Shown here in pieces: positions 1,905 through 62,083 of a stretch of DNA of 64,000 bases. Position numbers and translations under genes: made by a program. Numbering within the stretch: the stretch's first letter is position 1; each line of letters begins with the position of its first letter. The DNA is taken from NCBI RefSeq assembly GCF_963921235.1, contig NC_086097.1:4464001-4528000 (forward strand). Direction: 5' to 3'. The DNA comes from Mobula hypostoma (lineage: Eukaryota). The notes beneath the pieces are model-generated. The model made no database searches and had not been told where the DNA came from. It worked only from the letters and a program-made list of their open reading frames with translations.

Positions 1905-2049
1905 CTTTGATAATTTTACAGGCTGTTCAGATATTCCAGAAAAGTTTGCATAGTTAGTAAATGCATCTTCGATACCCATGGAGCTCAGTAGGGGTTTGAG
2001 TTTGTAAGCTGTCTTCAACGTCATCTTTGGGAAATGCACATCTACAGAT
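1905..2049 (-). CDS. SERPINA1-like: Serpin copy 1, third coding exon (145 nt); last exon lies outside the window
   Basis: Hand translation SVDVHFPKMTLKTAYKLKPLLSSMGIEDAFTNYANFSGISEQPVKLSK; acceptor catgacag, donor AAG|gtaaac; phase fits the previous exon. Not in the ORF track. Confidence 0.92.
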
Positions 2050-2240
2050 CTGTCATGAACATAACACCAGAAGGGTATTGTATCATCTCACGTTTTCTCA
2101 CATCTTAGTTTTTTAAACTTTAACTGATAAATAAATTAAACTAACACAAAGGAAATCTAAAAATTAGTGCAACACACACAAAATGCTGAAGGAAAACAAC
2201 AGATCAGGCAGCATCCATGGATTCAAGGTTCAGGTTCAAG

Positions 2241-6689: not shown

Positions 6690-9590
6690 AGAGGAGGTAA
6701 AAGGGGGTGGGGTGCGGGATGCGGGGAGCAGCACTACTAATCAGGGACAATATCACAGCTGTACTCAGGGTAGACAATGGAGGGGTCAGATGTCAGATGC
6801 TGAGTCATTTGGATAGAACTCAGGAATAGGAAGGGTGCAATCACACTGATGGGATTGTACCACTGACCCCTAATAGCCAACGGGACATTGAGGAACAGAT
6901 ATGTAGTCAGATTAAGGAAATGTGTAAAAATATTAGGGTCGTTGTCATGGGGGATTTTAAACTCCCTAATATAAAATGGGAGCTTCTTAGTGTAAAGGGT
7001 TTAGATGGGGCAGAATTTGTTAAGTGTATCCAGGAAGGTTTCTGAAATCAATATATGGACAGTCCAACGTGAGGAGCGGCCGTACTGGACCTGGTGTTGG
7101 GTAATGGGCCTGACCAGAGGTGACTGACCTTTCAATGGGTGAACAGTTAGGCAACGGTGACCTCAACTCCTTGAATTTCAGGATAGCGATAGATAAGAAC
7201 AGGTATGGTCTTTGTGGGAGAGCTTTAAATTGGAATAGGGCAAATTAAGAGGATGTTAAGCAGGAACTAAGAAGCGTTATTTGGGAACATCTTTTCTCTG
7301 GAAAGTCCACATCAGACATGTGGAGTGTGTTTAAAGATGAATTGTGCAGAGTGCAGGAAAGATATGTTCCTGTTAGAAGGAAGGACAGGGTTGGAAAGAT
7401 AAGAGAACCTTGGATGTCAAGAACTGTGATGAATTTAGTCAGGAAGAAAAAGAAAAAGTATGTAAAACTTCAAAAGTTAAGATCAAATGAAGCACATGAG
7501 GAGTACAAAGAAGCCAAAAAAGAACTTGAGATGGGAATTAGGAAAGCCAGGAGAGGCCATGAAAAGTCCTTGGCAAGTAGGATTAAGGTGAATCCAAAGG
7601 AATTCTGTACTTACATCAAGAGCAAAAGGATAATGAGGGAGAGAGTGGGATCACTCAACGATAAAGAGGTGAACATTTGCAGAGATGCAGAGAATCTGAG
7701 TGAGGTACTTAGTGAGTACTTTGCTTCAATATTTATCAAGGAAAAAGGATTTGGAAGATCAGGGGATCAGTACTGCATGTATATTTACATTATATTTACA
7801 TGTATATTTACAGAGTTCAAGGAGAAGGAAGTGTTGGGCCTTCTGATGAGAATTAAGGTGGATAAGTCCCCAGGACCTGATGGGATTGAAGGATGCAAGA
7901 GACGAGATTGCTGGGCCCTTGACGGATATCTTCATGTCCTCTCTGGCCACAGGCAAGGTCCCAGAGGACTGGCGAGTGGCTAATGTTGTGCCTTTATTTA
8001 AGAAGAGGCAAGGGAAAATCCTGTGAACTACAGACCAGTGAGTCTCATGTCAGTTGTCAGGAAATTGCTGGAGAAAATTCTTAGGGATAGGATATATGAG
8101 CATTTGGCCTAATTAGGGAGAGTCAAGTGGCTTTGTATGGGGCAGGTCGTGCCTTACCAACTTGATTGAGTTTTTTGACAAGGTGACGAGAGAGATTGTT
8201 GAGGGAGGGCAGTGTCTACATGGATTTTAGGAAGACATTTGACAAAGTCACTCATATAAGACTAATCCAGAAGATTAAAATGCATGGTGATTTGGCTGTT
8301 TTTATTCAAAACTGGCTTGCTCATAGAAGACACAGGGTAATGGTTGAAGGGACTTATTCCATAAGACCATGAGACCATAAGACACAGGAGCAGAGATTCG
8401 AGCTGGAGGTCTGTAATTAGCGGCGTTCCACAGGGATCTGTGCTGGGACCTCTGCTGCTGTGATGTTTATAAATGACCTGGATGAAACTGTAGGTGGGTG
8501 GTTTAGTAAGTTTTCAGATGTACCAAGATTGGTGGAGTTGTCGATGGTGTAGAAGACTGGAGCATTGGAGGTTGAGAGGAGACCTGACTGAGGTTTACAA
8601 GATTATGAAAGGCATAGATCCTGAAGGCATAGAGGGACTATCTGTTTACCAGGGTTGAAATGTCTCATGCCAGAGGGCATGCATTGAAGGTGAGAGGGGG
8701 TAGGTTCAAGGGGGCTGTGAGGTGTAAGTTTTATACCTAGAGAGTCATAGGAGCCTGGAATGCGCTGCCTGGTATGGTGGTAGAGGCAAATACATCAGAG
8801 GCTATTAAGAGATGTATGGATAGGCACATGGATGTAAGGAAGATGGAGGGATATGGACATGGTGTAGGTAGGAGGGATTCGTGTTTGGTTGTTTTTGATT
8901 TGCATTTTAGCTGGTTTGGCACAACACTGTGGGCCGAATGGTCTCTTCGTGTGCTGTCTATGCTCCATCATGACTTGTGTCACTGGTAATAAATCTGACT
9001 CTGAAGAAGGCATTTGGCTTGTTTGTCTTCATTAGTCCTTGAGTTCAAAAGTTAGGAGGTTATGTTGCAACTTTATAAAACTCTGGTTAGGCCACATCTG
9101 GAGTATTGCATACAGTGCTGGTCACCTCATTATAGGAAGGATGTTGAGGTTTTGGAGAGAGTGCAGCCGAAGTTTACCAGGATGCTGCCAGGATTAGAGA
9201 GCATGTGCTATAATGAGACGTTGGATGTACTTGGTTTTCTTTTCTGTGGAGCAGTGAAGGCTGAGATGAGATGTGATAGCAACGAATGGCCTGTTCCTGT
9301 GCTGCACTGTTGAATGTCCTATTTTCTATGTTGCCCCTTTGGAGTAGAGATAAGGAGGAACTTTGTTAGTAAGAGGGTGGTAAATCACTGCCAGGGATGA
9401 CTGTGGGGATCAAGTCATTGAGTATATTTAAAGTGGAGGTTGATAGGTTCTTGATTAGTCAGGGCATCAAAAGTTACAGGGTGAAAGCAAGAGAATGGGG
9501 TTGAGAGGAATAATAAATCAACCATAATGGATTGGTGGGGCAGATATGATGGGCTGAATGGCCTAATTTTGCTCCTGCGTCTGATGGTCT
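6690..9590 (+). mobile_element. Old degenerate CR1 fragments predating the duplication
   Basis: APE/RT remnants (MGDF, SPGPDG, RPHLEYC); shared with 35160-36037 plus 41958-44400. Confidence 0.8.
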
Positions 9591-9670: not shown

Positions 9671-9941
9671 TGCTTTTGCATTGACAACGAGAGATGATCA
9701 AATCTTTGAACGGTCAGTTTCCGCTCCAGCTCTGCCAATTTTCCAGATTTCGGTAGCAAAATCAATAGGGAGGTATTTCCTGCATATTCCATCAGAAGCG
9801 CATCACTGGAGAGGTCCTCGGCATATGTCCAGTAATACATTCCTGTCCTTCTCATCATGTGAACTCTCACTGTTGTTCTGTCGTCGACATGAAAATCAGC
9901 TTCATAAGTGTGCTTAGTGTCAAAAGGCTGCAACCATTCAC
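9671..9941 (-). CDS. SERPINA1-like: Serpin copy 1, second coding exon (271 nt)
   Basis: tttctccag|GT GAA TGG completes FKG-EW; motifs PFD, FHVD, VRVHMM, LILLP; donor CA|gtaagt (phase 2). Confidence 0.93.
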
Positions 9942-14086: not shown

Positions 14087-14705
14087 CTTTGAACAAGATA
14101 TAGTTGAGAAGAAACATCAAAGTATCCGATGAGAGGGGCTCTTTAAGGAAGTCTGGGATTTTGCCATTGGTTTTGCTATTCACATAAGCATTTATTTTGT
14201 CTTTTGTACTTTGTTGTTCATGAAAATCAACAGTCACTGTTTCTGCATTATAAAATTCCTCGGCTTCTTTGAGGAACTTTTCATGAATTTCTTTTCCGTT
14301 TTGAACATACAGAGAGCTTCCCATGTGGATTCCAACACTCACATTGTTCAAATGCTCCAGAAGCTGGGGGAATGTCTCCCTCACGGCGACAGCACCATTG
14401 TTTGTCATGTTGCTGTATCCAAGAACCTGCAGGAGCTGAGCCCGAGTTCTTTCCTTGGCACCCAATGACAACATGCTCAGGGAGGCAGAGATGCTCAGTG
14501 GAGAAAAGAAAATATTTTGGGAAGCTGTGTCTGGTTGAGTGGCAATCTGTCTGTACAGACGCAATGCAAATTCTGAATTTGCTGCTGAGAGGCTGAGAAG
14601 GGAAGGATATGGGGTAAATTCATTGACAGCAGAGGCATATCCACTGACCATGCCACTGGAAGGCAAAGCCACCATCAGGAAAGCAAAAGCAAGCAACTTC
14701 TCCAT
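14087..14705 (-). CDS. SERPINA1-like: Serpin copy 1, first main coding exon (signal peptide to strand 3A), alpha-1-antitrypsin-like
   Basis: Hydrophobic leader MEKLLAFAFLMVAL; serpin motifs NSEFALRLY, NIFFSPLSISASLSMLSLGA, INAYVNSKTNGKI, LLNYILFKG. Acceptor ttttactttgcag at 14713 and donor G|gtaag at 14086 (phase 1). Confidence 0.93.
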
Positions 14706-15142
14706 GTTGAACCTGCAAAGTAAAACACAAACCTACAATGTATTTATGTGCACTATTTAGAGATACAGCGCAGAACAGGTTCTTCCAGTCTAATACGCCA
14801 CAATACCCAGAAACTCACCTATTTAACCCTAGTCAATTCACAGGACAACTGACAATGACCATTTAGCCGACTAACCTGTACATGTTTGGACCGTGGGAAG
14901 AAACTCGAACAGCTGGGGGAAAGCCATGCGCTCATGGGCAGGAAATACAAAGAATTGAACTCAGAACTCCAGACCCCCCTGAGCAGTAATAGCAACACAC
15001 TACCTACTATATTACTGGGTTCTGAGTTTGCTCAAAACCTTCCTTTTAGATACTCCACAAAGCTTATATTGAAACTCTATTACATTTCACAAGTTAACAA
15101 GATCAGATATTGCTCCTTAGGTTCTAACACAAGTTCACTTAC

Positions 15143-28071: not shown

Positions 28072-28260
28072 TCAAATGTTGGGGTTCATCACTCTCCCAG
28101 CAAACAGGACACTCTGGACATATTTATCAGCAAGTAGTAACAAGAAAGGTCTGTTACATTTAAACTCAATAGCATGAGACATTGGGATTATTTGAGAGCT
28201 TGTAACTGCAGTAGAATTTGTTCCTTTCTCATGTACTTTCAGCACAGCCTTATGAATCAT
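28072..28260 (-). CDS. SERPINA1-like: Serpin copy 2, last coding exon (hinge, reactive centre loop, C-terminus)
   Basis: Acceptor tttttttccctctgtag; IHKAVLKVHEKGT...IPMS...NRPFLLLL...LFAGRVMNP then TGA. The four exons total 1224 nt = 407 aa plus stop. Confidence 0.92.
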   Translation of the reverse strand: MIHKAVLKVHEKGTNSTAVTSSQIIPMSHAIEFKCNRPFLLLLADKYVQSVLFAGRVMNPNI

Positions 28261-34688: not shown

Positions 34689-34833
34689 CTCTGATAATTT
34701 TAGAGACCCTTCAGATATTCCAGAAAAGTTTGCAAGGTGAGTAAATGCATCTTCGATACCCATGGACCTCAGTAGGGGTTTGAGTTTGTAAGTTGCCTTC
34801 AGCGTCATCTTTGGGAAATGCACATCTACAGAT
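34689..34833 (-). CDS. SERPINA1-like: Serpin copy 2, third coding exon (145 nt)
   Basis: Hand translation SVDVHFPKMTLKATYKLKPLLRSMGIEDAFTHLANFSGISEGSLKLSE; AG/GT sites intact. Confidence 0.92.
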
Positions 34834-36394
34834 CTGTCATGAACATAACACCAGAAAGGTACTGTATCACCTCAAATTTTCTCACATCTTAGTTTTTTAA
34901 ACTTTTACTGATAAATAAATTAAACTAACATAAAGGAAATCTAACAATTAATGCAACACACACAAAATGCTGGAGGAAAACAACAGATCAGGCAGCATCT
35001 ATGGATTGAAGGTTCAAGATTGTTTTATATAATTTCCAGTACACAGGTCCAAAGGAGAATAAAATAATTGAAACTCCGGGTCTGATGCAGCTGCAAAAGA
35101 ACACATTAAGACAAACACAATAACTGGAAAAGATAGAGGAGGTAAAAGAGGGGGTGGGGTGGGGGATGTGGGGAGCAGCACTACTAATCAGGGACAATAT
35201 CACAGCTGTACTCAGGATAGACAATGGAGGGGTCAGATGTCAGATGCTGAGTCATTTGGATAGAACTCAGGAATAGGAAGGGTGCAATCACACTGATGGG
35301 ATTTTACCACTGACCCCTAATAGCCAACGGGACATTGAGGAACAGATATGTAGTCAGATTAAGGAAATGAGTGAAAATAGTTGTTGTCATGAGGGATTTC
35401 AACCTCCCTAATATAAAATGGGAGCTTCTTAGTGTAAAGGGTTTAGATGGGGCAGAATTTGTTAAGTGTATCCAGGAAGGTTTCTGAAATCAATATGTGG
35501 ACAGTCTAACAAGAGGAGGGGCCGTACTGGACCTGGTGTTAGGTAATGAGCCTGGCCAGAGGTGACTGACCTTTCAGTGTGTGAACAGTTAGGCAATGGT
35601 GATCTCAACTCCTTGAATTTCAGGACAGCGATAGATAAGTATAGGTATGGTCTTTGTGGGAGAGCTTTAAATTGGAGTAGGACAAATTTAGAAGATGTTA
35701 AGCAGGAACTAGGAAGCGTTATTTGGGAACACCTTTTCTCTGGAAAGTCCACATCAGACATGTGGAGTGTGTTTAAAGATGAATTGTACAGAGTGCAGGA
35801 AAGATATGTTCCTGTTAGAAGGAAGGACAGGGTTGGAAAGATAAGAGAACCTTGGATGTCAAGAGCGGTGATGAATTTAGTCGAGAAGAAAAAGAAAAAG
35901 TATGTAAAACTTCAAAATTTAAGATCAAATGAAACACATGAGGAGTACAAAGAAGCCAAAAAAGAACTTGAGATGAGAATTAGGAAAGCCAGGAGAGGTC
36001 ATGAAAAGTCCTTGGCAAGTAGGTTTAAGGTGAATCCTTTCTTTCTTTTTAAATCTTTTTATTGAGTAAGTATACAAAAAAGGTAAGCCATATAAACATT
36101 AATACAATGTTAAAGTATAATAAAATTCCAAAAGATAACAATACCAAAAAGAAAATACTACAAACAATGTAATTTAAACATAAGAAACCAAGATAACATA
36201 ATAGTATACTAGATTTTATATATATCAATGGAAAAAAAGAAAAAAAAAACCCCAAAAAAAAACCCACCGTGCAACTAACTAAAAGCAAAGCAAAGCAATG
36301 GGCTAACTTGAAACCAAACAGAGTTAAACTTAAAATCACGTCCTCAATCCCGACCTCCATTAAAACAGTGAAGAGAAAACAAGAAGGGTAAATA

Positions 36395-39300
36395 TTACAT
36401 TAAATGAAAATATCGAATAAAAGGTCCCCAAATCTGTTCAAATTTAAATGAAGAATCATAAAGGTTACTTCTAATTTTCTCCAGATTCAAACATAAAATC
36501 GTCTGAGAAAACCAAAAAAAGGTAGTTGGAGCATTAAGCTCTTTCCAATGTTGTAAAATACATCTTTTCGCCATTAAAGTAAGAAATGCAATCATTCTAC
36601 GGGCTGAAGGGGAAAGATTACTAGAAATTTTAGGTAGTCCAAAGATAGCAGTAATAGGGTGAGGAGAGATATCTATATTTAATACCTTAGAAATAATATT
36701 GAAAATATCTCTCCAAAAAGTTTCCAAAGTAGGGCAAGACCAAAACATATGAGTTAAAGAGGCTATCTGCCCCGAACATCTATCACAGAAAGGATTAATA
36801 TGCGAGTAAAAACGCGCTAACTTATCTTTGGACATATGTGCTCTATGAACCACTTTAAATTGAATTAGGGAATGTTTAGCACAAATAGAGGAAGTATTAA
36901 CTAATTGTAAAATCTGCCCCCAATCATCTACAGAAATGGTAAGCCCCAATTCCTGTTCCCAATCTACCCTAATCTTATCAAATGGAGCTTTCCTAAGTTT
37001 CATAATAATATTATAAATCATAGCCGATGCACCTTTCTGACATGGATTAAGGTTAATTATCGAATCTAAAATATATATAGGAGGAAGCATTGGAAAGGAA
37101 GTAAGTATAGTACTTAGGAAATTTCTAACTTGTAAATATCTAAAAAAATGTATTCTTGATAAGTTATATTTGTTAGATAATTGTTCAAAAGACATAAGGG
37201 AACCATCTAAAAATAAATCCAAAAACCGTAAAATACCCTTAGTCTTCCAAGTTTGAAAAGCGCGATCCGTAAAAGAGGGAGGAAAAAATATGTTACCTAA
37301 AATAGGAATCGCTAACCCGAATTGATTAAGATCAAAAAATTTTCTGAATTGAAACCAAATGCGCAAAGCATATTTAACTATCGGGTTAGAGACCTGCTTA
37401 AGACGTTTCGAATCAAAAGGAAGAGAGGAACCTAAAATAGAACCAAGTGTATAACCCTGAACAGATTGTAATTCCAATGCTACCCATTTAGGAATAAATA
37501 GTATGTCCCGATCAAGTAACCAAAATTTCATATGTCGAATATTAATAGCCCAATAATAAAATCTAAAGTTAGGTAATGCTAAACCTCCATCTCTCTTAGC
37601 TTTCTGTAAATGTATTTTACCCAGTCTCGGATTCTTGTTCTGCCAAATAAATGAAGAAATTTTAGAGTCAACTTTATCAAAAAAAGATTTAGGAACGAAA
37701 ATTGGTAATGCCTGAAACACATATAAAAATTTTGGCAAAAAAAACATCTTAACTGCATTAATACGACCAATCAAAGTTAAATATAAGGGAAACCATTTAG
37801 ATGAAAGTTGAGTAATATGGTCTATTAATGGTAAAAAGTTAGTCTTAAATAAATCTTTATGTTTACAAGTAATTTTAATCCCAAGATATGAAAAGTAATT
37901 ATTAATCAATTTAAATGGAAATTTATAATATAAGGGAAGATGTTTATTAATCGGAAAAAGTTCACTCTTACTAAGATTTAATTTATAACCTGAGAAAAGA
38001 CCAAATTGTGCTAATAACTCTAAAACAGCAGGAATGGATCTCTCAGGATTAGAAATATATAAAAGTAAATCATCAGCATAGAGTGATAATTTATGGGACT
38101 TTAATCCCCGAGTTATCCCAGTAATATTTAAAGATTCTCGAATAGCAATTGCAAGAGGTTCTAATGCAATATCAAATAATAGGGGACTAAGAGGACAGCC
38201 TTGTCGAGTACCACGAAAGAGAGGAAAAAAAGGTGAGTTTAAGGAGTTAGTACGAACCGAGGCTACAGGGGAATAATATAACAGTTTAATCCAGGATATA
38301 AATTTCAAGCTAAAATTAAACATTTCAAGCACCTTAAATAAATAAGGCCATTCTACTCTATCAAAAGCTTTCTCGGCATCTAAAGAAATAACACACTCAG
38401 GAACATTTTGTGAGGGAGTATAAACGATATTTAACAATGTACGAATATTATAAAAAGAGTAACGACCTTTAATAAAACCCGTTTGGTCTTCCGAAATAAT
38501 AGAAGGAAGTACTTTTTCTAGTCTATTTGCTAATAACTTAGAAAAAACTTTAGAATCAACATTTAATAAAGATATTGGTCTATAAGATGCACATTGAGCA
38601 GGGTCTTTATCCTTCTTTAGTATTAAAGAAATTGATGCTCTATTAAAAGATTCCGGAAGTTTACCAAGTTTCAAAGAAGCCTCAAAAACCTTATAGAGCC
38701 AAGGAATCAATAAAGAAGCAAAACATTTATAAAATTCAACGGTAAACCCATCAGGGCCAGGAGCTTTCCCCAGATTCATAGAAAAAATAACATTCTTAAT
38801 CTCATCCATTGTAATGGAAGTATCTAATAAAGAAGACATATCTTGTGAAATCAGAGGGAAGTCTAACTTATCTAAAAAATCATTCATATATTTAGAATCT
38901 CGAGGAGACTCTGATTGGTATAAAGAAGAATAAAAATCACAAAAGGTTTGATTAATCCCCACATGATCCAATATCAATCGATCATTTTGGTTATAAATCT
39001 GATTGATTTGAGATTTAACATAATTAGATTTCAATTGATTAGCCAGCAGCTTGCCAATTTTATCACTGTGAACATAAAAATCACTTCTTGTTTTCTTTAA
39101 TTGGTTTACAATCGAGGACGAGAGTAGTAAACTGTGTTCCATTTGAAGTTCAGTTCTTTGTTTGTATAGCTCCTCAGAAGGAGCCATAACATATTTCTTA
39201 TCAATTTCTTTAATCTTGTCCACAATTACCATCTCCTCCTGCTTCTGTTTCTTCCTCAAAGCAACGGAATACGAAATAATCTGACCCCGAATATAGGCTT

Positions 39301-40171
39301 TAAAAGTGTCCCAAAGAGTGTTAACCGAAATATCTTCTGTATGGTTAATTGTAAAAAAAAGCTCAATCTGTTCATTCATAAAATTAACAAAGTCCGAGTC
39401 CTGAAGTAACAGCGAATTAAAACGCCATTGTCTATTGTTTGGTATATTGGCCATAATTTTAATAGAAAGCTTAAGTGGAGCATGATCCGAAATGGTTATA
39501 GAATCATAATCACATTTAATCACTGAAGAAATGAGACGAGAATCAATGAAAAAATAATCAATTCTTGAATAGGAATGATGAACATGTGAAAAGAAGGAAA
39601 AATCTTTTTCCTGAGGATGCAGAAAACGCCAAATGTCCGTCGACCCAGAATCAGAAAGGAAAAAATTAATCAAATTTGCAGATTTATTAGGTAAAGTCCG
39701 TAAAGGAGCCGAACGGTCCAAAGCTGGAGATAAACAGGTATTAAGATCTCCGCCCCAAATCAATGAAAACTCGTTCAAATTCGGAAACTGATCAAACAAT
39801 GATTTATAAAATTCCGGACAATCCATATTAGGAGCATAAACATTAACCAAAACTACTTTTTTATTAAATAATAAACCACTAACCAATAAAAATCTACCAT
39901 TCGGATCAGAGATAATATCCTGTTGTATAAAAGTAACTGAGGAGTCTATAAAGATAGAGACGCCTCGAATCTTAGCATTGGAGTTCGAATGAAATTGTTG
40001 TCCCTTCCAAAATTTGAAAAAACGTAGTCTGTCCCCCCTCCGTACATGGGTCTCTTGTAAAAATAAAATTTGTGCTTTAAGTCTCCGGAACACTTTAAAA
40101 ACTTTTTTCCTTTTAATAGGATGATTAAGACCATTAGTATTCCAGGAGACAAAATTAATAATAGACTCCAT
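36395..40171 (-). CDS. L1 ORF2p (APE endonuclease, reverse transcriptase, CCHC), about 1258 aa
   Basis: ATG at 40171 (MESIINFVSWN); LQETH, GGDLN, SRIDY, ISDH, APGPDG, DAEKAFD, RQGCPLSP, YADD, YLG, CDRC...HMFWSC; no stops. Confidence 0.95.
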   Translation of the reverse strand: MESIINFVSWNTNGLNHPIKRKKVFKVFRRLKAQILFLQETHVRRGDRLRFFKFWKGQQFHSNSNAKIRGVSIFIDSSVTFIQQDIISDPNGRFLLVSGLLFNKKVVLVNVYAPNMDCPEFYKSLFDQFPNLNEFSLIWGGDLNTCLSPALDRSAPLRTLPNKSANLINFFLSDSGSTDIWRFLHPQEKDFSFFSHVHHSYSRIDYFFIDSRLISSVIKCDYDSITISDHAPLKLSIKIMANIPNNRQWRFNSLLLQDSDFVNFMNEQIELFFTINHTEDISVNTLWDTFKAYIRGQIISYSVALRKKQKQEEMVIVDKIKEIDKKYVMAPSEELYKQRTELQMEHSLLLSSSIVNQLKKTRSDFYVHSDKIGKLLANQLKSNYVKSQINQIYNQNDRLILDHVGINQTFCDFYSSLYQSESPRDSKYMNDFLDKLDFPLISQDMSSLLDTSITMDEIKNVIFSMNLGKAPGPDGFTVEFYKCFASLLIPWLYKVFEASLKLGKLPESFNRASISLILKKDKDPAQCASYRPISLLNVDSKVFSKLLANRLEKVLPSIISEDQTGFIKGRYSFYNIRTLLNIVYTPSQNVPECVISLDAEKAFDRVEWPYLFKVLEMFNFSLKFISWIKLLYYSPVASVRTNSLNSPFFPLFRGTRQGCPLSPLLFDIALEPLAIAIRESLNITGITRGLKSHKLSLYADDLLLYISNPERSIPAVLELLAQFGLFSGYKLNLSKSELFPINKHLPLYYKFPFKLINNYFSYLGIKITCKHKDLFKTNFLPLIDHITQLSSKWFPLYLTLIGRINAVKMFFLPKFLYVFQALPIFVPKSFFDKVDSKISSFIWQNKNPRLGKIHLQKAKRDGGLALPNFRFYYWAINIRHMKFWLLDRDILFIPKWVALELQSVQGYTLGSILGSSLPFDSKRLKQVSNPIVKYALRIWFQFRKFFDLNQFGLAIPILGNIFFPPSFTDRAFQTWKTKGILRFLDLFLDGSLMSFEQLSNKYNLSRIHFFRYLQVRNFLSTILTSFPMLPPIYILDSIINLNPCQKGASAMIYNIIMKLRKAPFDKIRVDWEQELGLTISVDDWGQILQLVNTSSICAKHSLIQFKVVHRAHMSKDKLARFYSHINPFCDRCSGQIASLTHMFWSCPTLETFWRDIFNIISKVLNIDISPHPITAIFGLPKISSNLSPSARRMIAFLTLMAKRCILQHWKELNAPTTFFWFSQTILCLNLEKIRSNLYDSSFKFEQIWGPFIRYFHLM

Positions 40172-40889
40172 AAATCCTAAAGTCAACCCATAACAAGGAG
40201 GATTGACAATAGGCGCGACCCACAGACCCGGAGAGGAAACAGAACATACAAAAGATACCGGGGAAAAGGACGTAACCAATACTTCAATAATGTATATAGC
40301 CCAAAGAGAAACAAACTAAAACGTGAAGCCCCTCCCACCGCCCCCCACCCCAGGACCCCAAGGCGAAATCTAAAGCAGACCCGCCAGAAAGAAGCAAGCG
40401 CTAAAACTACCCCCATGACTTCCGGTATACGCTCCCTAAAAAAAAGGTATAAATATGAAAAGGATCAGCTAATTGTAAAACAGTAAAAAATAAGTAAAAA
40501 AAAGTTAGCTCAATTAAAATACACACAGAACAGAACAAAAGCCGGAAAGTATATATTAAAAAAAACCACAATAAACCTCAAACTCATGAATAGACACAGC
40601 AACAAAAAAAATAGGATTATTAACATAAAATGATTATAAAAAGCAAAACAGAATAAAATTTAAAAAAAACTACAAAATTTAAGGCCGCACAGGAAATACG
40701 TAAGATGACAAAAGGGAAGTAACCACCCAGAATCCCCTGGGAAAAGAAAGAAATGACGCAGTTAAAAAGAAAGTTTAGCAGCCATATTAAGAAATCGAAA
40801 GTAAACTTTTCTGCCCAAATAGGGCACAGAAAAGTTAAAACCAACCAATTCACAGCCTCCGATCAACGGAGAAAATTAAAAAAAGGCAA

Positions 40890-41789
40890 TTAAGATGTTG
40901 AAGATGAAAGTTGATCCAGATAACTCTGGGCATCCGATGGAGAATCAAAAAAACGAAGAGCTCCATCTAACATGCGAATCCTTAGACGTGCAGGGTACAG
41001 CAGCGCTGGTCTTAAATCCATCTTATAGAATTCCGACATCACGGATCTGTAACGGACCCGTTGGTCCCAGATTGGTTTACTGAAATCTTCCACGAATCGG
41101 AACTTAAGATCCGAAAAATCAATGAAACCTTTAGATCGAGCGAATCGAAACAGTCTCTCCTTATCTTGAAAGTAATGAAAACGTAAGATAACATGCCTAG
41201 GTCTATCTGACCTAGACGAGTATGATGGGATTCTGTGAACACGATCCAGTAGCGGTGGTTGGTCAGGAAATACAGTAGGGAATGCATCTTTTAAAAGTTG
41301 GGAGAAATATTTCATAGGGTTGTTAGCTTCCACGGCTTCCCTGACGCCAATCATTCGTAAATTCTGCCGTCGCATTCTAGATTCCAAGTCAGAGTTTTTA
41401 AAAGTCAAAAAGTCAAGTTTCTTCTTCATTACATTAATTGTTTCTTCGACTTTCCCCATCTTAAGCTCACTTTGTTGCGCGGATTTTTGAAGACCAGATA
41501 TAGCCGACTGATGTTCCGCAATACATGTTTGCATCTTATCAATTAAATCGGCAATTTTCTGGAACTTAGTTGAGATTTCCATATGAATCAGGTCTTTAAC
41601 AAAGCCCATAATTTCTGTACGAATCATCTCCCTAACAGAGGTTGAAATTTCCCTCTGAATTAACTCCGATATAGCTTCCAAAGTCACCGGTGATTCAGTC
41701 GGAGGGAGATCCGTAGCTTTCGGTTTAACCGGAGGTTTACCATCCTTGCCGTCTTTCCCGTTCTTAGACATAGCAGATCTAAGTTCCAT
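40890..41789 (-). CDS. L1 ORF1p (coiled coil, RRM, C-terminal domain)
   Basis: 299-aa open frame with DLESRMRRQNLRMIGVRE, LDRVHRI, RPRHVILRF, FVEDFS, LLYPARL. Confidence 0.9.
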   Translation of the reverse strand: MELRSAMSKNGKDGKDGKPPVKPKATDLPPTESPVTLEAISELIQREISTSVREMIRTEIMGFVKDLIHMEISTKFQKIADLIDKMQTCIAEHQSAISGLQKSAQQSELKMGKVEETINVMKKKLDFLTFKNSDLESRMRRQNLRMIGVREAVEANNPMKYFSQLLKDAFPTVFPDQPPLLDRVHRIPSYSSRSDRPRHVILRFHYFQDKERLFRFARSKGFIDFSDLKFRFVEDFSKPIWDQRVRYRSVMSEFYKMDLRPALLYPARLRIRMLDGALRFFDSPSDAQSYLDQLSSSTS

Positions 41790-41957
41790 CCAATTGTCAG
41801 AGAATTCAGTTTAATTCAAAGTATTGTAAAAATTGATGCCTTAATAGTTAATTAAAGTATAGCTGACCATAGAGAGAAAAAACTCAGAGGTAATGGAGCG
41901 AGTCAAGAACGCGACTTCACTCCATGAGCGCTACCGGAAGTCTCCTAAGGTGAATCC

Positions 41958-44483: not shown

Positions 44484-44754
44484 CGGTTTTCCATTGACGA
44501 CAAGAGATGATCAAATCTTTGAACGGTCAGTTTCCGCTCCAACTCTGCCAATTTTCCAGATTTCGGTAGCAAAATCAATAGGGAGGCATTTCCTGCATAT
44601 TCCATCAGAAGCACTTCACTGGAGAGGTCCTCGGCATATGTCCAGTAATACATTCCTGTCCTTCTCATCATGCGAACTCTCTCTGTTGTTCTGTCGTCGA
44701 CATGAAAATCAGCTTCATAAGTGTGCTTAGTGTCAAAAGGCTGCAACCATTCAC
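44484..44754 (-). CDS. SERPINA1-like: Serpin copy 2, second coding exon (271 nt)
   Basis: GEWLQPFD...LILLP...SMEN; acceptor tttctccag, donor CG|gtaagt. Confidence 0.92.
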
Positions 44755-45805
44755 CTGGAGAAATCAAAGAGATAAGCGTACTCAGGTAATTTGAAGACCC
44801 TGACCTGGAGTTACACTCTGACTTCGGTTCTTTGCAGGAATGGGACCTGCTCATGCGGCCTCATAACTGTCCGCTTTTCGATATGCCAAGGGCATGGCCT
44901 GGAAGACTAACGTGCCTCCAGGGTGCCGGATTTTTGTGGCTCTGGAGACGGGCTGATTCAAGGCCGGTGCTGCCACCGATGACGACTGATGTGTCACGGG
45001 AGAACAAGGAAGATCGGAAGCAGCAGGCTGGCTGCTGGCTGTGTTCCCAGAGGCACAGAGCTTGGAAAAAGCGATGCAACAGACTTTTAACACCGTAGAT
45101 CAACGAGTTGTTCTGCTACGTCTCCCCTCTCGCTGTGAAACGGGGACACCTCTTTTTCCCTCATTAGAGAAAGAGAGCCTGTGGTATGTCGAATACCGGG
45201 TGAGCGAGTAGTCTTTGGGCAATTCTGAGTCTTTACTGATGCTTTGCTGCATGCTTGAGTGGGGCGCCACCGATTAAGGGGAATGTGAAGGGAAACTCCT
45301 TCACTCAGAGGGTGGTGAGGGTGTGGAAGTAGCTGCCAGTGCAAGTGCTACATACAAGGTACTTGGATGGGAGGGGTACAGAGGGCTCTGGTCACGTGCA
45401 GCTCGATGGAAGGAGGTGGTTTACATGGTTAGGCTCAGATCAGATGAGTCAGATGAGACAAATGGCTTATCTCTGCTGTGCTTTTCTATGGCTTCTTATA
45501 CCTTGCCTACTGTCTCAAGGCTGGGTGTGTCTGCCCCTGTACCAAGCCCACCCCCACCCATGACACTCCTTCTGTGCCATCGGTCCCACACTCCTTCTGT
45601 CGCCCTCCACCCTCCCCATTCCCAACATCCTTTCCTCCCGCCAGATTTACAAACTCGTTCTCCACTGCACGTTAACAAATACAGAACTGTGCAAAGGTCT
45701 TAGGTACACGAGCTATATGTATGTGCCCCAATCTCCTGCCTTCCCTCCTGTAACCCTTCATGTCATAACCAATCAAGAATCTATCAATCTTTGCCTTAAA
45801 TATAC

Positions 45806-48800
45806 ATAGAACATAGAACAGTATAGCACATTACAGGCCCTTCGGCCCACAATGTTGTGCCGACCCTCAAACCCTGCCTCCCATATAACCCCCCACCTTA
45901 GATTCCTCCATATACCTGTCTAGTAGTCTCTTAAACTTCACGAGTGTATCTGCCTCCACCACTGACTCAGGCAGTGCATTCCATGCACCAACCACTCTCT
46001 GAGTAAAAAACCTTCCTCTGATATCCCCCTTGAACTTCCCACCCCCTACCTTAAAGCCATGTCCTCTTGTATTGATCAGTGGTGTCCTGGGGAAGAGGTG
46101 ATGGCTATCCACTCTATGTATTCTTCTTATTATCTTGTACACCTCTATCATGTCTCCTCTCATTCTCCTTCTCTCCAAAGAGTAAAGCCCTAGCTCCCTT
46201 AATCTCTGATCATAATGCATACCCTCTAAACCAGGCAGCATCCTGGTAAATCTCCTCTGTACCCTTTCCAATGTTTCCACATCCCTCCTATAGTGAGGTG
46301 ACCAGAACTGGACACAGTACTCCAAGTGTGGCCTAACCAGAGTTTTATAGAGCTGCATCATTACATCGCGACTCTTAAACTCTATCCCTCGACTTATGAA
46401 AGCTAACACCCCATAAGCTTTCTTAACTACCATATCTACCTGTGAGGCAACTTTCAGGGATCTGTGGACATGTACCCCGTGATCCCTCTGCTCCTCCACA
46501 CTACCAAGTATCCTGCCATTTACTTTGTACTCTGCCTTGGAGTTTGTCCTTCCAAAGTGTAGCACCTCACACTTCTCTGGGTTGAACTCCATCTGCCACT
46601 TCTCAGCCCACTTCTGTATCCTATCAATGTCTCTCTGCAATCTTTGACAATCCTCTACACTATCTACAACACCACCAATCTTTGTGTCGTCTGCAAACTT
46701 GCAACCCACCCTTCTACCCCGACATCCAGGTCGTTAATAAAAATCACGAAAAGTAGAGGTCCCAGAACAGATCCTTGTGGGACACCACTAGTCACAATCC
46801 TCCAATCTGAATGTACTCCCTCCACCACCACCCTCTGCCTTCTGCAGGCAAGCCAATTCTGAATCCACCCAGCCAAGCTTCCCTGGATCCCATGCCTTCT
46901 GACTTTCAGAATAAGCCTACAATAGAACCATAGAACCATAGAAACTACATCACAGAAACAGGCCCTTTGGCCCTTCTTGGCTGTGCCGAACCATTTTCTG
47001 CCTAGTCCCACTGACCTGCACACGGACCTAGTCCCACTGACCTGCACACGGACCATATCCCTCCATACACCTCCCATCCATGTGTCTGTCCAATTTATTC
47101 TTAAATGTTAAAAAAGAACCCGCATTTACCACCTCATCTGGCAGCTCATTCCATACTCCCACCACTCTCTGTGTGAAGAAGCCCCCCACTAATGTTCCCT
47201 TTAAACTTTCCCCCCCTCACCCTTAACCCATGTCCTCTGGTTTTTTTCTCCCCTTGCCTCAGTGGAAAAAGCCTGCTTGCATTCACTCTATCTATACCCA
47301 TCATAATTTTATATACCTCTATCAAATCTCCCCTCATTCTTCTACGCTCCAGGGAATAAAGTCCGAACCTATTCAACCTTTCTCTGTAACTGAGTTTCTC
47401 AAGTCCCGGCAACATCCTTGTAAACCTTCTCTGCACTCTTTCAACCTTATTTATATCTTTCCTGTAATTTGGTGACCAAAACTGAACACAATACTCCAGA
47501 TTCGGCCTCACCAATGCCTTATACAACCTCATCATAACATTCCAGCTCTTATACTCAATACTTTGATTATTAAAGGCCAATGTACCAAAAGCTCTCTTTA
47601 CGACCCTATCTACCTGTGATGCCACTTTTAGGGAATTTTGTATCTGTATTACCATTAACCCTGTATGTTCTACGTTGGTTTGTCCTTCCAACGTGCAATA
47701 CCTCACACTTGTCAGTATTAAACTCCATCTGCCATTTTTCAGCCCATTTTTCCAGCTGGTCCAAGTCCCTCTGCAGGCTCTGAAAACCTTCCTCACTGTC
47801 TACTACACCTCCAATCTTTGTATCATCAGCAAACTTGCTGATCCAATTTACCACATTATCATCCAGATCATTGATATAGATGACAAATAACAATGGACCC
47901 AGCACTGATCCCTGTGGCACACCACTAGTCACAGGCCTCCACTCGGAGAAGCAATTCTCTACTACCACTCTTTGGCTTCTTCCATTGAGCCAATGTCTAA
48001 TCCTATTTACCACCTCTCCATGTATACCTAGCGACTGAATTTTCCTAACTAACCTCCCATGCGGGACCTTGTCAAAGGGCTTACTGAAGTCCATGTAGAC
48101 AATATCCACTGCCTTCCCTTCATCCACTTTCCTGGCAACCTCCTTGAAAAACTCCAATAGATTGGTCAAACATGACCTACCACGCACAAAGCCATGTTGA
48201 CTCTTCCTAATAAGTCCCTGTCTATCCAAATGCTTGTAGGTTCTGTCTCTTAGTACTCCCTCCAATAATTTACCTACTACCGACGTTAAACTTACTGGCC
48301 TATAATTTCCCGGATTACTTTTCGATCCTTTTTTAAACAACAGAACAACATGAGCCACTCTCCAATTCTCCGGCACCTCACCTATAGACAGCGACATTTT
48401 AAATATTTCTGCCAGGGCCCCTGCAATTTCAACACTAGTCTCCTTCAAGGTTCGAGGGAACACCCTGTCAGGTCCCGGGGATTTATCCACTTTAATTTTC
48501 CTCAAGACAGCAAGGACCTCCTCCTTTTCGATCTGTACAGTTTCCATGATCTCACTACTTGTTTCCCTTAATTCCACAGACTTCATGCCAATTTCCTTAG
48601 TAAATACAGACGCAAAAAACCTATTTAAGATCTCCCCCACTTCCTTTGGTTCCGCACATACCCCGACCACTCTGATCTTCAAGAGGGCCAATTTTATCCC
48701 TTACAATCCTTTTGCTCTTAATATACCTGTAAAAGCTCTTTGGATTATCCTTCACTTTGACTGCCAAGGCAACCTCATGTCTTCTTTTAGCCCTCCTGAT

Positions 48801-49943
48801 GTCTTTCTTAAGTATTTTCTTGCTCTTCTTGTACTCCTCAAGCACCTTATTTACTCCCTGCTTCCTATACATGTCATACAACTCCCTCTTCTTCTTTATC
48901 AGAGTTGCAATATCCCTTGAGAACCAAGGTTCCTTATTCCTATTCACCTTGCCTTTAATCCTGACAGGAACATACAAATTCTGCACTCTCAAAATTTCTG
49001 CCTTGAAGGCTTCCCACCTACCGATCACATCCATGCCAGAGAACAACCTGTCCCAATCCACGCTTTTTAGATCTTTCCTCATTTCTTCAGATTTGCCCTT
49101 CCCCAATTAAAAATTTTCCCCAGTTAAAAATTATATCCTTTTCCATGATAATGCTAAAGGCCAGGGAGCGGTGGTCACTGTCTCCCAGATGCTCACCCAC
49201 TGAGAGATCTGTGACCTGACCCGGTTCATTACCTAGTACCAGATCTAGTATGGCATTCCCCCTAGTCGGCCTGTGCACATACTGTGATAGGAATCCGTCC
49301 TGGACACACTTAACATACTCTGCCCCATCTAAACCCTTGGAACTGACCAGGTGCCAATCAATATTAGGGAAGTTAAAGTCACCCATGATAACAACTGTTA
49401 TTTTTGCACCTTTCCAAAATCTGCCTCCCAATCTGCTCCTCTGTATCTCTACTGCCACCTGGGGGCCTACAGAATCCCCCCAATAGAGTAACTGCTCCCC
49501 TCCTGTTCCTGACTTCCACCCATACTGACTCAAAAGAGGATCCTGCTACATTACCCACCCTTTCTGTAGCTGTAATAGTATCCCTGACCAGTAATGCCAC
49601 CCCTCCTCCCCTCCCCCCCTCTCTATCCCTTTTAAAGCACTGAAATCCAGGAATATTGAGAATCCATTCCTGCCCTGGTGCCAGCCAAGTCTCTGTAATG
49701 GCCACTACATCATAATTCCATATATGTATCCAAGCTCTCTGTTCATCACCTTTGTTCCTGAAGCTTCTTGCATCGAGGTACACACACTTCAGCCCTTCTG
49801 CCTTACTATCTTTACACCGTTTATTCTGCTTCTCTTTCCTCAAAGCCTCTCTATATGTTAGATCTGGCTTTACTCCATGCACTTCTTTCACTGCTCTATC
49901 GCTCTGGGTATCATCCCCCTTGCAAATTAGCTTAATTTAGTTT
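45806..49943 (-). mobile_element. Composite CR1 insertion (family 1 with a family 2 element inside), specific to unit B
   Basis: 45806-46920 and 49091-49930 match the 2241-6562 family; 46921-49090 is a different CR1 with its own (GTTCTATG)n tail; empty site near 12165 in unit A. Confidence 0.88.
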
Positions 49944-51856
49944 AATACCCTATGACATAGTTTGAAATACACCCCAAAGATAATTCGATGTAAGAGAGTT
50001 TAGAGCACTTCAAAGTAAAACTCTATCGGAGGAGAGATGGACAGAGATGTTCATGTTTGACTTTATTTATTTGGCGATACAGGGCAGAGTGGGCCCATCT
50101 GGCCCTTCGAGCCACACCGTCCCAGCAACCCCCACCAACCACAAACCCAATTAACCCTAACCTAATCACCAGCCAATTTACAATCACCTATTAACCTATC
50201 CGGGACGACTTTGGAAACTGGAGCATCCAGAGGAAACCCACGCGTTCCATAGGAATGATGTACAGAGGCTCCTTACAGAACAGAATTCCAAACTCTGGAA
50301 TGTCACATTAACTGCTACCCTACTGTGGTGCCCCTATGTGTGAGAGATGCACAGGATCAAGAAGAGGTGTACAAGATGGAGAACAGAGAGGGATCTGCAA
50401 CTCCAGTGCATAACTTTAAAAATAACTTAAAAAAACAATGTGGAACTTCCTGGTGGTCAAACTTTTCAATTTCTCCTTTCCTCTTCCAACATGTTGGTCC
50501 ATGGCTTCCTCTTGTGCCATGATAAGGACATCCTCAGTGTGGAGGACTAACATCTTGTATTCCATCTGGGTGGCCTCCAACTTGATGGTAGGAATATCGA
50601 TTTCTCCTTCCGGTAAAAAATTACCTCCTCCTCCCCTTTACTATTCCCCTCCCTGTCCTCTTACCTCTTCTCACCTGACTGTCACCCCCCCCCCAATGCG
50701 TCACCTCTTCATTCCTTTTCTCTCATGGTCCACCGTCCTCTCCTATCAGATTCCTTCTTCTCCAGCCCTTTACCTTTCCTATTCACCTGGCTTCACCTAT
50801 CACCTTAGCTATCGTCCTTCCCCATTTTTTATACAAGCATCTTCTTTCCTTTCCAGTCATGAAGAAGCTCTCAGCCCTAAGTGTTGACTGTTTATTCATT
50901 TCCATAGATGCTGCCTGACCTGCTGAGTTCCTCCAGTATTTAGTATGTGTTGCTCTGGTTTTCCAGCATCTGCAGTATCTCATAATTATTAAAAATAAAA
51001 TATAACCAAACAAATATTGCATTCTTTGGATCAATATTTCAAATACCTAAAATAAAATAAATATATTGTCTTGAAAATTGATTACTGTTCAATTCACTTT
51101 AAGTTCCCTGAGAAATTTTTTTTTATAAATAGAATACAGTTCTAAGTTTTCTGGTTAACTAACAACAATCTTGCATAGAGCCACACAAATTAACAATGCA
51201 TTCAGAAATGTTTGAATTACAGGTAATTCTGACATCATCAATTTGGGGACATCAGTGTAAAAAATGGGAATTCATGCACTGATGTATAAACTTTTAAATG
51301 GTTAGATTTTCAAATTCTTGCATTGCATAACATGGGTGGTGGGGTGGAGAGACATCTCTACCAAAGGAAGTGTAAGGCCCTCCTTCCTTTCACGAGCTTG
51401 CAGCTCACCCTAGGCAAGGTGCAGCACCTACTTAGACTCCCCCCGCACCCCCCATCCCATCAGGATGAAGCCACGGGAGCAGGTAGTGGGTGGTCGTATG
51501 AGCAGCTGGTGCATATCACAAGTCCTGGATATGCAACCACTGCACTAGGCAGATAATCTCTGAAGAGTATTGATAATGACTGGGCTCACCCATCTTGTAA
51601 AGACACTGCCCAGAAGAAAGCAATAGCAAATCACTTCTGTCAAAAAATTTGCCAAGAACAATCATTATCATGGAAAGACAATGATCACTCATGTCATACA
51701 ACAGGGTGCATAACGAACAAACAATTGCAAAACACCCCTACCCTCACAGAGCATATAAAGATGTTTAGAAATTGTCCTACTCAATATACAGAAGTTGAAG
51801 CATCAACTGATTCAGTCATTAAATGATGTGTGTTTAACATCCAAATGACATCTTAC

Positions 51857-52475
51857 CTTTGAACAAGATATGGCTGAGAAGAAACATCAGAGAATCCGGT
51901 AAGAAGGGCTCTTTAAAGAAGTTTGGGTTTTTGACGTGGGTTATGTCACTCACATAAGCATTTATTATGTCTTTTGTACTTTGTTGTTCACGAGAATCAA
52001 TCCTCTCTATGGTGGCATTATAATATTCCTCGGCTTCTCTGAGGAACCTTTCATGAATTTCTTTTGTGTTTTGAACATACAGAGAGATTCTAATGTGGAT
52101 TCCATCACTCACATTGTTCAAATGCTTCAGAAGCTGGCGGAATGTCTCCCTCACGGCGACAGTACCATTGTTTGTCATGTTGCTGTATCCAAGAACCTGC
52201 AGGAGCTGAGCCCGAGTATTTTCCTTGGCACCCAATGACAACATGCTCAGGGAGGCAGAGATGCTCAGCGGAGAAAGGAAAATATTTTGGGAAGCTGTGT
52301 CTGGTTGAGCGGCAATCTTTTTGTACAGACGCAATGCAAATTCTGAATTTGCTGCTGAGAGGCTGAGGAGGGAAGGGTGTGGGGTAGATTCATTGACAGC
52401 AGAGGGATATCCACTGACCATGCCACTGGAAGGTAAAGTGACCATCAGGAAAGCAAAAGCAAGCAACTTCTCCAT
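51857..52475 (-). CDS. SERPINA1-like: Serpin copy 2, first main coding exon
   Basis: Gap-free paralog of 14087-14705 with identical splice sites and an open frame. Confidence 0.92.
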
Positions 52476-52841
52476 GTTGAACCTGCAAAGTAAAACACAA
52501 ACCTACAATGTATTTATTGTGCACTATTTAGAGATACAGCGCAGAACAGGTTCTTCCAGTCTATCGAGCCACAATACCCAGAAACTCACCTATTTAACCC
52601 TAGTCAAATCACAGGACAATTGACAATTGACAATGACCAATTAGCGACTAACCTGTACATGTTTGATGGTGAACCCCCTGAGCAGCGATAGCAACACACT
52701 ACCTACTATATTACTGGGTTCTGAGTTTGCTCAAAACATTCCTTTTAGATTCTCCACAAAGCTTATATTGAAACTCTATTACATTTCACAAGTTAACAAG
52801 ATCAGATATTGCTCCTTAGGTTCTAACACAAGTTCACTTAC

Positions 52842-53060
52842 AGATTCATATTGGTAGCCTATTTATAATTTCAGAGTCCTACCTGAAGTGAAGAAGCTCG
52901 TTCGTCTTTGGCAGCCCAACTTGCCGAAATATAGTTCTTGGTCTCTAATGTCAATTTATACCATAACAATTGCAAACACGATTTAGACATTAATCAATGA
53001 AGTGACTTTTGATCCATAGATATCTTTGTTTAAACAATTTGATTGGTTTTGCAAGTATGG
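52842..53060 (-). promoter_or_regulatory. Putative promoter and short first exon of serpin copy 2
   Basis: Same arrangement: donor at 52841, TATAAAT 52954-52960, DR1 53003-53015, TTGTTTAAACAA 53026-53037. Confidence 0.5.
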
Positions 53061-61894: not shown

Positions 61895-62083
61895 TTAAAC
61901 AGTGGGATTTATCACTCTTCCTGCAAAAAGGACATTCTTTGTGTTGTGATCGGCAATTAATAGCAAGAATGGCCTGTTGAATTTAAGCAGAGGAGCCCTT
62001 GACATTGGCATTAAACCAACTGTGGTCACTACAGAAGCTTCTGTGCCTTTTTCATCGATGTTCAGCACGGCCTCGTGAACCAC
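61895..62083 (-). CDS. SERPINA1-like: Serpin copy 3, last coding exon; remaining exons lie beyond the right edge
   Basis: Acceptor tttctctgctcctgtag; VVHEAVLNIDEKGTEAS...MPMS...FNRPFLLLI...LFAGRVINP then TAA; AATAAA on the minus strand at 61791-61796. Confidence 0.9.
   Translation of the reverse strand: MVHEAVLNIDEKGTEASVVTTVGLMPMSRAPLLKFNRPFLLLIADHNTKNVLFAGRVINPTV

What the first reader, a model, noticed from the sequence alone, without database searches (positions are those of the whole stretch)
51857..52110. Copy 2 has rewritten the conserved strand 1A/helix F/strand 3A region
Seen: 38 of the 56 differences in this exon fall in about 240 nt. Copy 1 keeps consensus-like AETVTVDF, INAYVNSKTNGKI and LLNYILFKG, whereas copy 2 has ATIERIDS, INAYVSDITHVKN and LLSHILFKG. 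Known: the F before helix F, the T.GKI loop and the strand 3A Asn are highly conserved in serpins and take part in beta-sheet A opening. Inference: change is asymmetric, and copy 2 may have lost or altered the inhibitory conformational switch and become a carrier, decoy or secreted structural glycoprotein.
Basis: partly seen in the sequence, partly recalled or inferred. Interest (0 to 1): 0.72.

Follow-up and report, generated by a model that had tools for sequence, protein, structure and literature searches.

The report
Devil ray antitrypsin copy losing inhibition
A duplicated devil-ray protease-inhibitor gene has rapidly rewritten the helix that helps it trap enzymes while keeping its bait loop, so it has probably become a sugar-coated decoy or a fading spare copy, a known fate for such duplicates reached by an unusual route.

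Summary
The counts are exact: 38 of 56 exon differences lie in 254 nt (15% against 3.9% in paired non-coding DNA), and 30 of 32 changed codons change the amino acid. Both copies are intact alpha-1-antitrypsin-like (clade A) serpin genes; the identical database protein is labelled Mobula hypostoma. Change is asymmetric, but less than read: copy 2 belongs to a derived, glycan-rich Mobula subclade, and ATIER is shared by five of six Mobula paralogs. Only 13 of 30 substitutions are private to copy 2, among them antitrypsin-equivalent F147S, G167V, I169N and N186S. In published PAI-1 scanning data the F-to-S equivalent is strongly depleted, G-to-V and N-to-S mildly, and I-to-N is tolerated. Copy 2 keeps a passable hinge and a Met-Ser bait, while its three sister paralogs carry a blocking P8 Arg instead. 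Pairwise dN/dS is 1.8, so uniform decay does not fit, but selection on copy 2's own branch and its expression are not shown. Best reading (0.5): a selected, weak or non-inhibitory secreted glycoprotein; rivals are a decaying duplicate (0.25), a retuned inhibitor (0.15) and a conversion tract (0.1).

The parts
51857..52475 (-). Copy 2, first coding exon (signal peptide to strand 3A; codons 1-206)
   Evidence: spliced product identical to P0001
51857..52110 (-). Fast-changing stretch: strand 2A, helix E, strand 1A, helix F, loop to strand 3A, strand 3A (codons 123-206); 38 differences from copy 1
51993..51995 (-). F161S, antitrypsin F147S, before helix F; private to copy 2; Ser in 3 of 304 outgroup domains
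51927..51935 (-). G181V and I183N (antitrypsin G167V, I169N); private to copy 2; each 0 of 304 outgroup domains
51870..51875 (-). N201S (antitrypsin N186S, shutter; private) and Y202H (shared with P0002)
52086..52091 (-). G129R and S130I (antitrypsin positions 115-116, strand 2A); shared with P0002 only
44484..44754 (-). Copy 2, second coding exon
34689..34833 (-). Copy 2, third coding exon
28072..28260 (-). Copy 2, last coding exon with stop codon
28177..28230 (-). Copy 2 hinge and reactive loop P17-P1': passable hinge, new N-glycan sequon at P13, Met-Ser bait
52584..52960 (-). Copy 2 upstream region: two splice donors (52836-52849, 52584-52595) and TATA-like sites, the same motifs as in copy 1
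   Evidence: a spliced joint 52480-52588 was seen only in a contig with copy-1 features
36027..41957 (-). L1-type LINE with two open frames, inserted in the gene's sense in a copy 2 intron, 12-bp target-site duplication; absent from copy 1 (end coordinates approximate)
   Evidence: L1 type judged from ORF layout, recalled
14087..14705 (-). Copy 1, first coding exon (part of P0006)
9671..9941 (-). Copy 1, second coding exon
1905..2049 (-). Copy 1, third coding exon; its last exon lies outside the window
61895..62083 (-). Last exon of a third, slowly evolving clade A serpin upstream (96.8% identical to Hypanus P0019)

Best explanation
Copy 2 is an intact, secretable, glycan-rich member of a Mobula-specific derived branch of the stingray alpha-1-antitrypsin-like genes that has given up efficient protease trapping. 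Shown: full reading frame, native serpin fold in the model, 9 N-glycan sequons, a burst of private changes on one contiguous face (strand 2A, helix E, strand 1A, helix F and its loop), a passable hinge and a Met-Ser bait. Inferred: loss of the Phe anchoring helix F, plus G167V, N186S and the strand 2A changes, loosens the helix F clamp and the shutter, so an elastase-like enzyme would still cut the bait but mostly be released (substrate or decoy behaviour), or the rewritten face binds a new partner. Inferred: selection drove part of the divergence between the copies. Its sister paralogs reached the same end by a different route, a P8 Arg in the hinge.
For: Exons 2-4 dN/dS 1.8 (68 of 806 N sites, 11 of 229 S sites, one-sided p 0.04); hot stretch pN 0.167 against 0.039 non-coding; 68 N changes against 31 expected if both copies were neutral, p 7e-9. 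Private residues on copy 2: 1 in codons 1-122, 13 in 123-206, p 1e-4 against uniform decay; terminal branch 0.008 against 0.27. None of 304 outgroup domains breaks all four scored conserved sites; one breaks three, and it has a dead hinge. PAI-1 scan at 0 h (PMC9667310 supplement 1): F126S log2 -3.16, G146V -0.98, N167S -0.78, none of them found in the 'functionally active' sheet; P12 A335S +0.59 active; P8 T339R -3.96. N186 bonds to S56, N116 and H334 (PMC8198886); copy 2 alters two of these four positions. Helix F disruption gives substrate behaviour in neuroserpin and PAI-1 (PMC5322333). Model confidence over residues 161-200 is 80, 72, 63, 76 in copy 2 against 89-96 in copy 1 with the same 107 sequences. 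Sequons 9 against 4 in copy 1 and at most 7 in 304 domains. Tree places copy 2 with P0002-P0004 at 100/99.
Against: dN/dS within the hot stretch alone is not significant (2.2, p 0.09), and the test is pairwise: no DNA of the sister paralogs was available, so selection on copy 2's own branch is not shown. The 13 private changes against the whole pairwise neutral expectation give only p 0.057. The hot stretch is only marginally faster than exons 3-4 in private changes (p 0.051). I148N (+0.12) and T161S (+0.21) are tolerated in PAI-1. 2 of the 3 outgroup domains with Ser at the F147 site have inhibitor-like hinges. PAI-1 is a latency-prone, distant serpin. Lower model confidence may only reflect mismatch with the alignment. 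No database protein 90% identical to copy 2 exists in the second Mobula species (cluster of one). Transcription of copy 2 is not shown.
Confidence: 0.5

Rival explanations
1. Copy 2 is a decaying duplicate: the adaptive phase happened earlier in the subclade, constraint has since relaxed, conversion recently refreshed the first 122 codons, and the protein misfolds or is barely made.
For: Private changes hit buried conserved sites and are mostly single-base steps. Outside codons 1-122 they are spread: 13, 4, 5 and 9 in the hot stretch and the three later exons. A sense-strand LINE with open frames sits in a copy 2 intron; that such insertions lower transcription is recalled. No close counterpart in the other Mobula species. 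Shutter variants of antitrypsin are retained and polymerise (PMC8198886).
Against: 407-codon frame, all splice sites, upstream donors, TATA-like and poly(A) motifs intact, with no indel. The C-terminal sheet core and bait are kept. The N excess over both neutral references needs selection somewhere.
Confidence: 0.25
2. Copy 2 is still a working inhibitor of elastase-like enzymes with retuned stability or speed; the changes compensate one another, or shield the helix F face from a pathogen or parasite protein.
For: P17 E, P15 G, P14 T, P12 S, P10 A, P8 T and Met-Ser are kept while three sisters lost them. A335S and I148N are active in PAI-1. N186S occurs in 19 domains with passing hinges. The model matches native antitrypsin (TM 0.85, rmsd 2.0).
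Against: Even F126L is strongly depleted in PAI-1 (-2.5). Four conserved-site breaks together are unmatched in 304 domains. The P13 sequon is seen in only 2 of 304. Only 1 of 4 residues at P12-P9 is Ala.
Confidence: 0.15
3. The dense stretch is a gene-conversion tract copied from an older, degenerate paralog not seen here, so its changes did not arise in, or for, copy 2.
For: The family is mosaic: region trees differ, and P0005 joins the derived strand 1A to an ancestral-type hinge. Non-coding divergence is patchy, 1.7-6.9%. With 4 synonymous steps counted, a neutral donor is not excluded (p 0.09).
Against: Only 2 purely synonymous codons where about 8 synonymous changes are expected (p 0.012). 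The stretch carries the subclade's own derived residues. No donor among the 6 Mobula proteins found or in the window. The adjoining intron is nearly identical between the copies.
Confidence: 0.1

Closest known systems
Human alpha-1-antitrypsin (SERPINA1)
   Same: Four-coding-exon layout (recalled), native fold, Pfam PF00079, Ile-Pro-Met-Ser bait (one search shows it against an antitrypsin-loop construct).
   Different: About 36% identical; F147, G167, I169, N186 and G115 equivalents changed; 9 sequons.
Primate SERPINA2 (PMC3691238; abstract and passages seen)
   Same: Tandem duplicate of an antitrypsin gene with branch-specific positive selection, divergent fate and a pseudogene question.
   Different: Its selected sites lie at P1, the breach and scattered places, and it stays in the ER; here the bait is kept and the helix F face is rewritten.
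Uterine serpins (SERPINA14 name recalled; PMC2254604 passages seen)
   Same: Clade A-derived, secreted glycoproteins that gave up serine protease inhibition.
   Different: They lost the hinge; copy 2 has not. No uterine expression is known for the ray genes.
Corticosteroid-binding globulin-like P0121 (ground squirrel, source's name)
   Same: Only one of 304 domains with Ser, a polar residue and Ser at the F147, I169 and N186 sites together.
   Different: 35% identical, dead hinge, other odd residues; a single parallel, not evidence of hormone carriage.
Sister paralogs P0002, P0003, P0004 (Mobula)
   Same: Same derived subclade, 7-8 sequons, shared strand 1A string, P12 Ser.
   Different: They keep F147, G167, I169 and N186 but have P8 Arg, P1 Arg and a changed F312 equivalent.

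Membership tests
Serpin superfamily | Serpin domain above the curated cut-off | tested here: met
   PF00079 356 bits, cut-off 27
Serpin superfamily | Native serpin fold | tested here: met
   Model pTM 0.83; best solved matches are native antitrypsin, TM 0.85; the model leans on its alignment
Clade A, antitrypsin-like | Nearest relatives are clade A serpins; signal peptide and four coding exons | tested here: met
   signal peptide judged by eye; exon rule recalled
Inhibitory serpins | Hinge P17 E, P16 E/K/R, P15 G, P14 T/S | tested here: met
   E-K-G-T; consensus from PMC2689274
Inhibitory serpins | Small residues (A/G/S) at P12-P9 | tested here: inconclusive
   S-T-A-V: 2 of 4, the same count as copy 1 (A-T-A-V); passes my looser script rule, not the strict consensus
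Inhibitory serpins | 17-residue loop ending in a plausible P1-P1' | tested here: met
   E356 to M372, then S373
Inhibitory serpins | Conserved helix F anchor and shutter residues (F147, I169, S56, N186, H334) | tested here: not met
   F147S, I169N, N186S; S56 and H334 kept. These are strongly conserved, not absolute
Inhibitory serpins | SDS-stable complex with a protease and stability gain on cleavage | not testable with these tools
   needs recombinant protein
Hormone-carrier serpins (CBG, TBG) | Orthology and a ligand pocket | not tested
   pocket residues not examined and no carrier was in the tree; 35% identity to P0121
Uterine serpins | Degenerate hinge | tested here: not met
   copy 2 keeps the hinge; the three sisters do not; feature from PMC2254604
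Uterine serpins | Uterine secretion in pregnancy | not testable with these tools
   run identities are coded and no tissue is given
Pseudogene | Broken frame or splice signals | tested here: not met
Pseudogene | No transcription | tested here: inconclusive

The most novel reading that the evidence does not exclude
The derived Mobula subclade is a set of non-inhibitory, heavily glycosylated serpins recruited into a secretion, most strikingly the uterine milk on which myliobatiform embryos feed, converging on the mammalian uterine serpins, with the switch disabled twice independently: at the hinge in three paralogs, and at helix F with the bait left intact in copy 2.
Probability: 0.1. Interest if true: 0.8.

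Novelty: new variant of a known kind. Interest (0 to 1): 0.42.

Why it matters
Known non-inhibitory serpins are usually recognised by a broken hinge, so a natural serpin with a normal-looking hinge and bait but a dismantled helix F anchor would be misfiled as an inhibitor. With copy 1, about 96% identical in its introns, as control, the pair is a ready natural test of how much helix F contributes to trapping. The stingray and devil-ray branch of these genes evolves fast (stem 0.43 changes per site) and none of my searches found it described. If copy 2 is only decaying, the finding is ordinary duplicate turnover.

Tried and rejected
No genome is held for this window, so paralog DNA, a conversion donor and gene order beyond the window could not be examined. 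Cluster members could not be listed, so hidden members of the P0003 cluster are unseen. Expression: no RNA holder listed (11 rows, best share 0.26). Laid contigs of 4 of the 11 runs: X1 holds a 352-nt contig whose 26 listed letters, total of 27 and loose end all equal copy 1 and a spliced joint with copy-1 features, plus one copy-2-exact 151-nt piece; their depths are 14,790 and 3.2, but contig depth cannot rank genes and the piece may be DNA, so I draw no conclusion on copy 2's expression. X11 and X3 hold exon-long contigs of the sister type (38 and 45 other letters). CpG hypermutation rejected: 3 of 38 differences in CpG context. The exhaustive profile search gave no further devil-ray or stingray member, as the library clusters at 50%. 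A link to uterine milk, or any account of this gene family in rays, was not found in the listings of searches; most subscription papers are not in the library, Kina et al. 2021 on stingray uterine milk was seen only as a citation in PMC10015161, and bioRxiv supplements are closed. One search for antitrypsin variants at these sites returned nothing. The recollection that the rewritten face is where vitronectin binds PAI-1 was not confirmed by the passages of PMC5529462. V334N is absent from the PAI-1 file. No complex prediction was run: enzyme-bait docking would pass by likeness to solved structures. Polarity was read from alignment columns and outgroups, not from reconstructed ancestors.

Full report
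What is there. The minus strand holds two tandem copies of an alpha-1-antitrypsin-like serpin gene and the last exon of a third. Copy 2 is complete: coding exons 51857-52475, 44484-44754, 34689-34833 and 28072-28260 give a 407-residue frame with canonical splice sites, identical to database protein P0001, which its source labels Mobula hypostoma. Copy 1 lacks only its last exon in the window and is part of P0006. The third exon is 96.8% identical to a slowly evolving Hypanus serpin.

The observation. The first coding exons differ at 56 of 619 sites, 38 of them in 51857-52110. That is 15% against 349 of 9053 (3.9%) in seven paired non-coding blocks; a scan statistic gives p 0.0006 within the exon, and the densest 254 nt in five non-coding blocks holds 9-21 differences. 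30 of 32 changed codons alter the residue. A contig of run X1 matches copy 2 exactly over 151 nt of the stretch, so it is not an assembly error. By alignment to antitrypsin and the model the stretch runs from strand 2A through helix E, strand 1A and helix F to strand 3A.

Who changed. Six Mobula proteins (three per species) and four from two stingray genera form a fast clade (stem 0.43) whose sister is a skate-type gene (29 rows). Copy 1 sits near the base of the Mobula group (end branch 0.036); copy 2 (0.13) groups at 100/99 with P0002-P0004 from both species, so the two copies are not sisters. Of the 30 substitutions, 13 are found only in copy 2, 7 only in copy 1 and 10 vary among the other four. 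Against each of 8 outgroups copy 2 carries 12-17 derived residues in the stretch and copy 1 0-6 (p under 0.05 in 6 of 8; the outgroups are not independent), with no significant asymmetry elsewhere. Copy 2 has 1 private residue in codons 1-122 and 13 in 123-206.

Selection or decay. Over exons 2-4 dN/dS is 1.8 (p 0.04), with dS 0.05 close to the non-coding rate; 68 nonsynonymous changes stand against 31 expected if both copies were neutral. Selection therefore acted somewhere between the copies. Region trees differ, so conversion is likely in this cluster and could have refreshed the 5' part of a decaying gene.

What the changes should do. In antitrypsin numbering copy 2 has G115R, position 116 to Ile, F147S, G167V, I169N, T180S, N186S and Y187H. 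Among 304 outgroup domains (355 aligned; 41 dropped as incomplete at the scored sites, 10 as members of the ray clade) these residues occur 1, 3, 3, 0, 0, 19, 28 and 0 times; none breaks all four of the sites G115, F147, I169 and N186, and the one that breaks three has a dead hinge. N186 bonds to S56, N116 and H334 across the insertion site, and N186Y causes polymers and deficiency (PMC8198886; abstract, passages and discussion seen). In the PAI-1 scan (PMC9667310; passages and rows of supplement 1 seen; meaning of depletion from PMC8458277, abstract and section 7) the equivalents at 0 h score F126S -3.16, G146V -0.98, N167S -0.78, I148N +0.12 and T161S +0.21. The mapping starts from recalled numbering and is supported by matching wild-type letters and spacing in the file. 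So the Phe loss is the weighty change, and two of the five tested are tolerated. Helix F damage turns neuroserpin and PAI-1 into substrates (PMC5322333; passages). With the same 107 sequences, model confidence over helix F and its loop is 63-80 in copy 2 and 89-96 in copy 1, which may only mirror mismatch with the alignment.

The reactive loop. Copy 2 keeps E-K-G-T at P17-P14, Ser, Ala and Thr at P12, P10 and P8, and Met-Ser at P1-P1' (consensus from PMC2689274, passages). It adds a sequon at P13, seen in 2 of 304 domains. Its three sisters have Arg at P8; the PAI-1 equivalent T339R scores -3.96 while A335S is active (P-numbering of PAI-1 recalled). The subclade carries 7-9 sequons against 3-5 in copy 1's branch and the stingray genes. 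The simplest reading is a glycan-rich branch released from inhibition, with two separate ways of disabling the switch.

Expression. Not settled. Contigs show a spliced transcript with copy 1's letters and one short copy-2-exact piece that may be DNA; the tools give no tissue and no valid level. Upstream donors, TATA-like and poly(A) motifs are intact in copy 2, but a LINE with open frames has inserted in its sense in one intron.

Comparison and verdict. Copy 2 is a clade A serpin by domain, fold and relatives; whether it is an inhibitory serpin is open, since the hinge passes in part and the helix F and shutter features fail. It works most like primate SERPINA2 in history (PMC3691238; abstract and passages) and like the uterine serpins in possible fate (PMC2254604; passages), but is a member of neither. 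Myliobatiform embryos feed on uterine milk (PMC10015161; passages), which makes a uterine role an attractive guess with no evidence here. I found no account of this family in rays in searches, which cover open-licence papers only. An earlier first-stage note on this window says the same about exon versus intron divergence; it is not independent, and I tested it. Verdict: real, a new variant of a known kind; interest 0.42.

Noticed in passing
window 36027-41957 (-): L1-type LINE with two open frames (40890-41810 and 36395-40315) and a 12-bp target-site duplication, inserted in the gene's sense in a copy 2 intron; the empty site is at about 7584-7595 in copy 1. It looks young.
   Followed up: partly
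window 45805-49944 and 2233-6554: Further copy-specific insertions of reverse-transcriptase repeats, about 4 kb each, in an intron of copy 2 and of copy 1.
   Followed up: partly
window 14889-14971: About 84 bp present upstream of copy 1's first coding exon and absent from copy 2, inside the region covered by a spliced copy-1-type contig.
   Followed up: partly
window 61895-62083 (-): Last exon of the conserved elasmobranch clade A serpin, almost unchanged from Hypanus, next to the fast-evolving copies: a built-in rate control.
   Followed up: partly
P0002, P0003, P0004: Sister paralogs with Arg at P8 and P1 and a changed F312 equivalent; P0002 also has Tyr at the H334 site. They are clearer candidates for non-inhibitory serpins than copy 2.
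   Followed up: partly
P0005: Mosaic protein: derived strand 1A string joined to a copy-1-type helix F and hinge, a sign of conversion between paralogs.
   Followed up: partly
P0007-P0010: The four stingray members all have Gln at the H334 site and Ser/Thr-rich hinges, with varied P1 residues (Met, Met, Gln, Leu).
   Followed up: no
P0121: A ground squirrel protein named corticosteroid-binding globulin shows the same three changes at the F147, I169 and N186 sites and several other odd residues; it may be a degenerate duplicate.
   Followed up: partly
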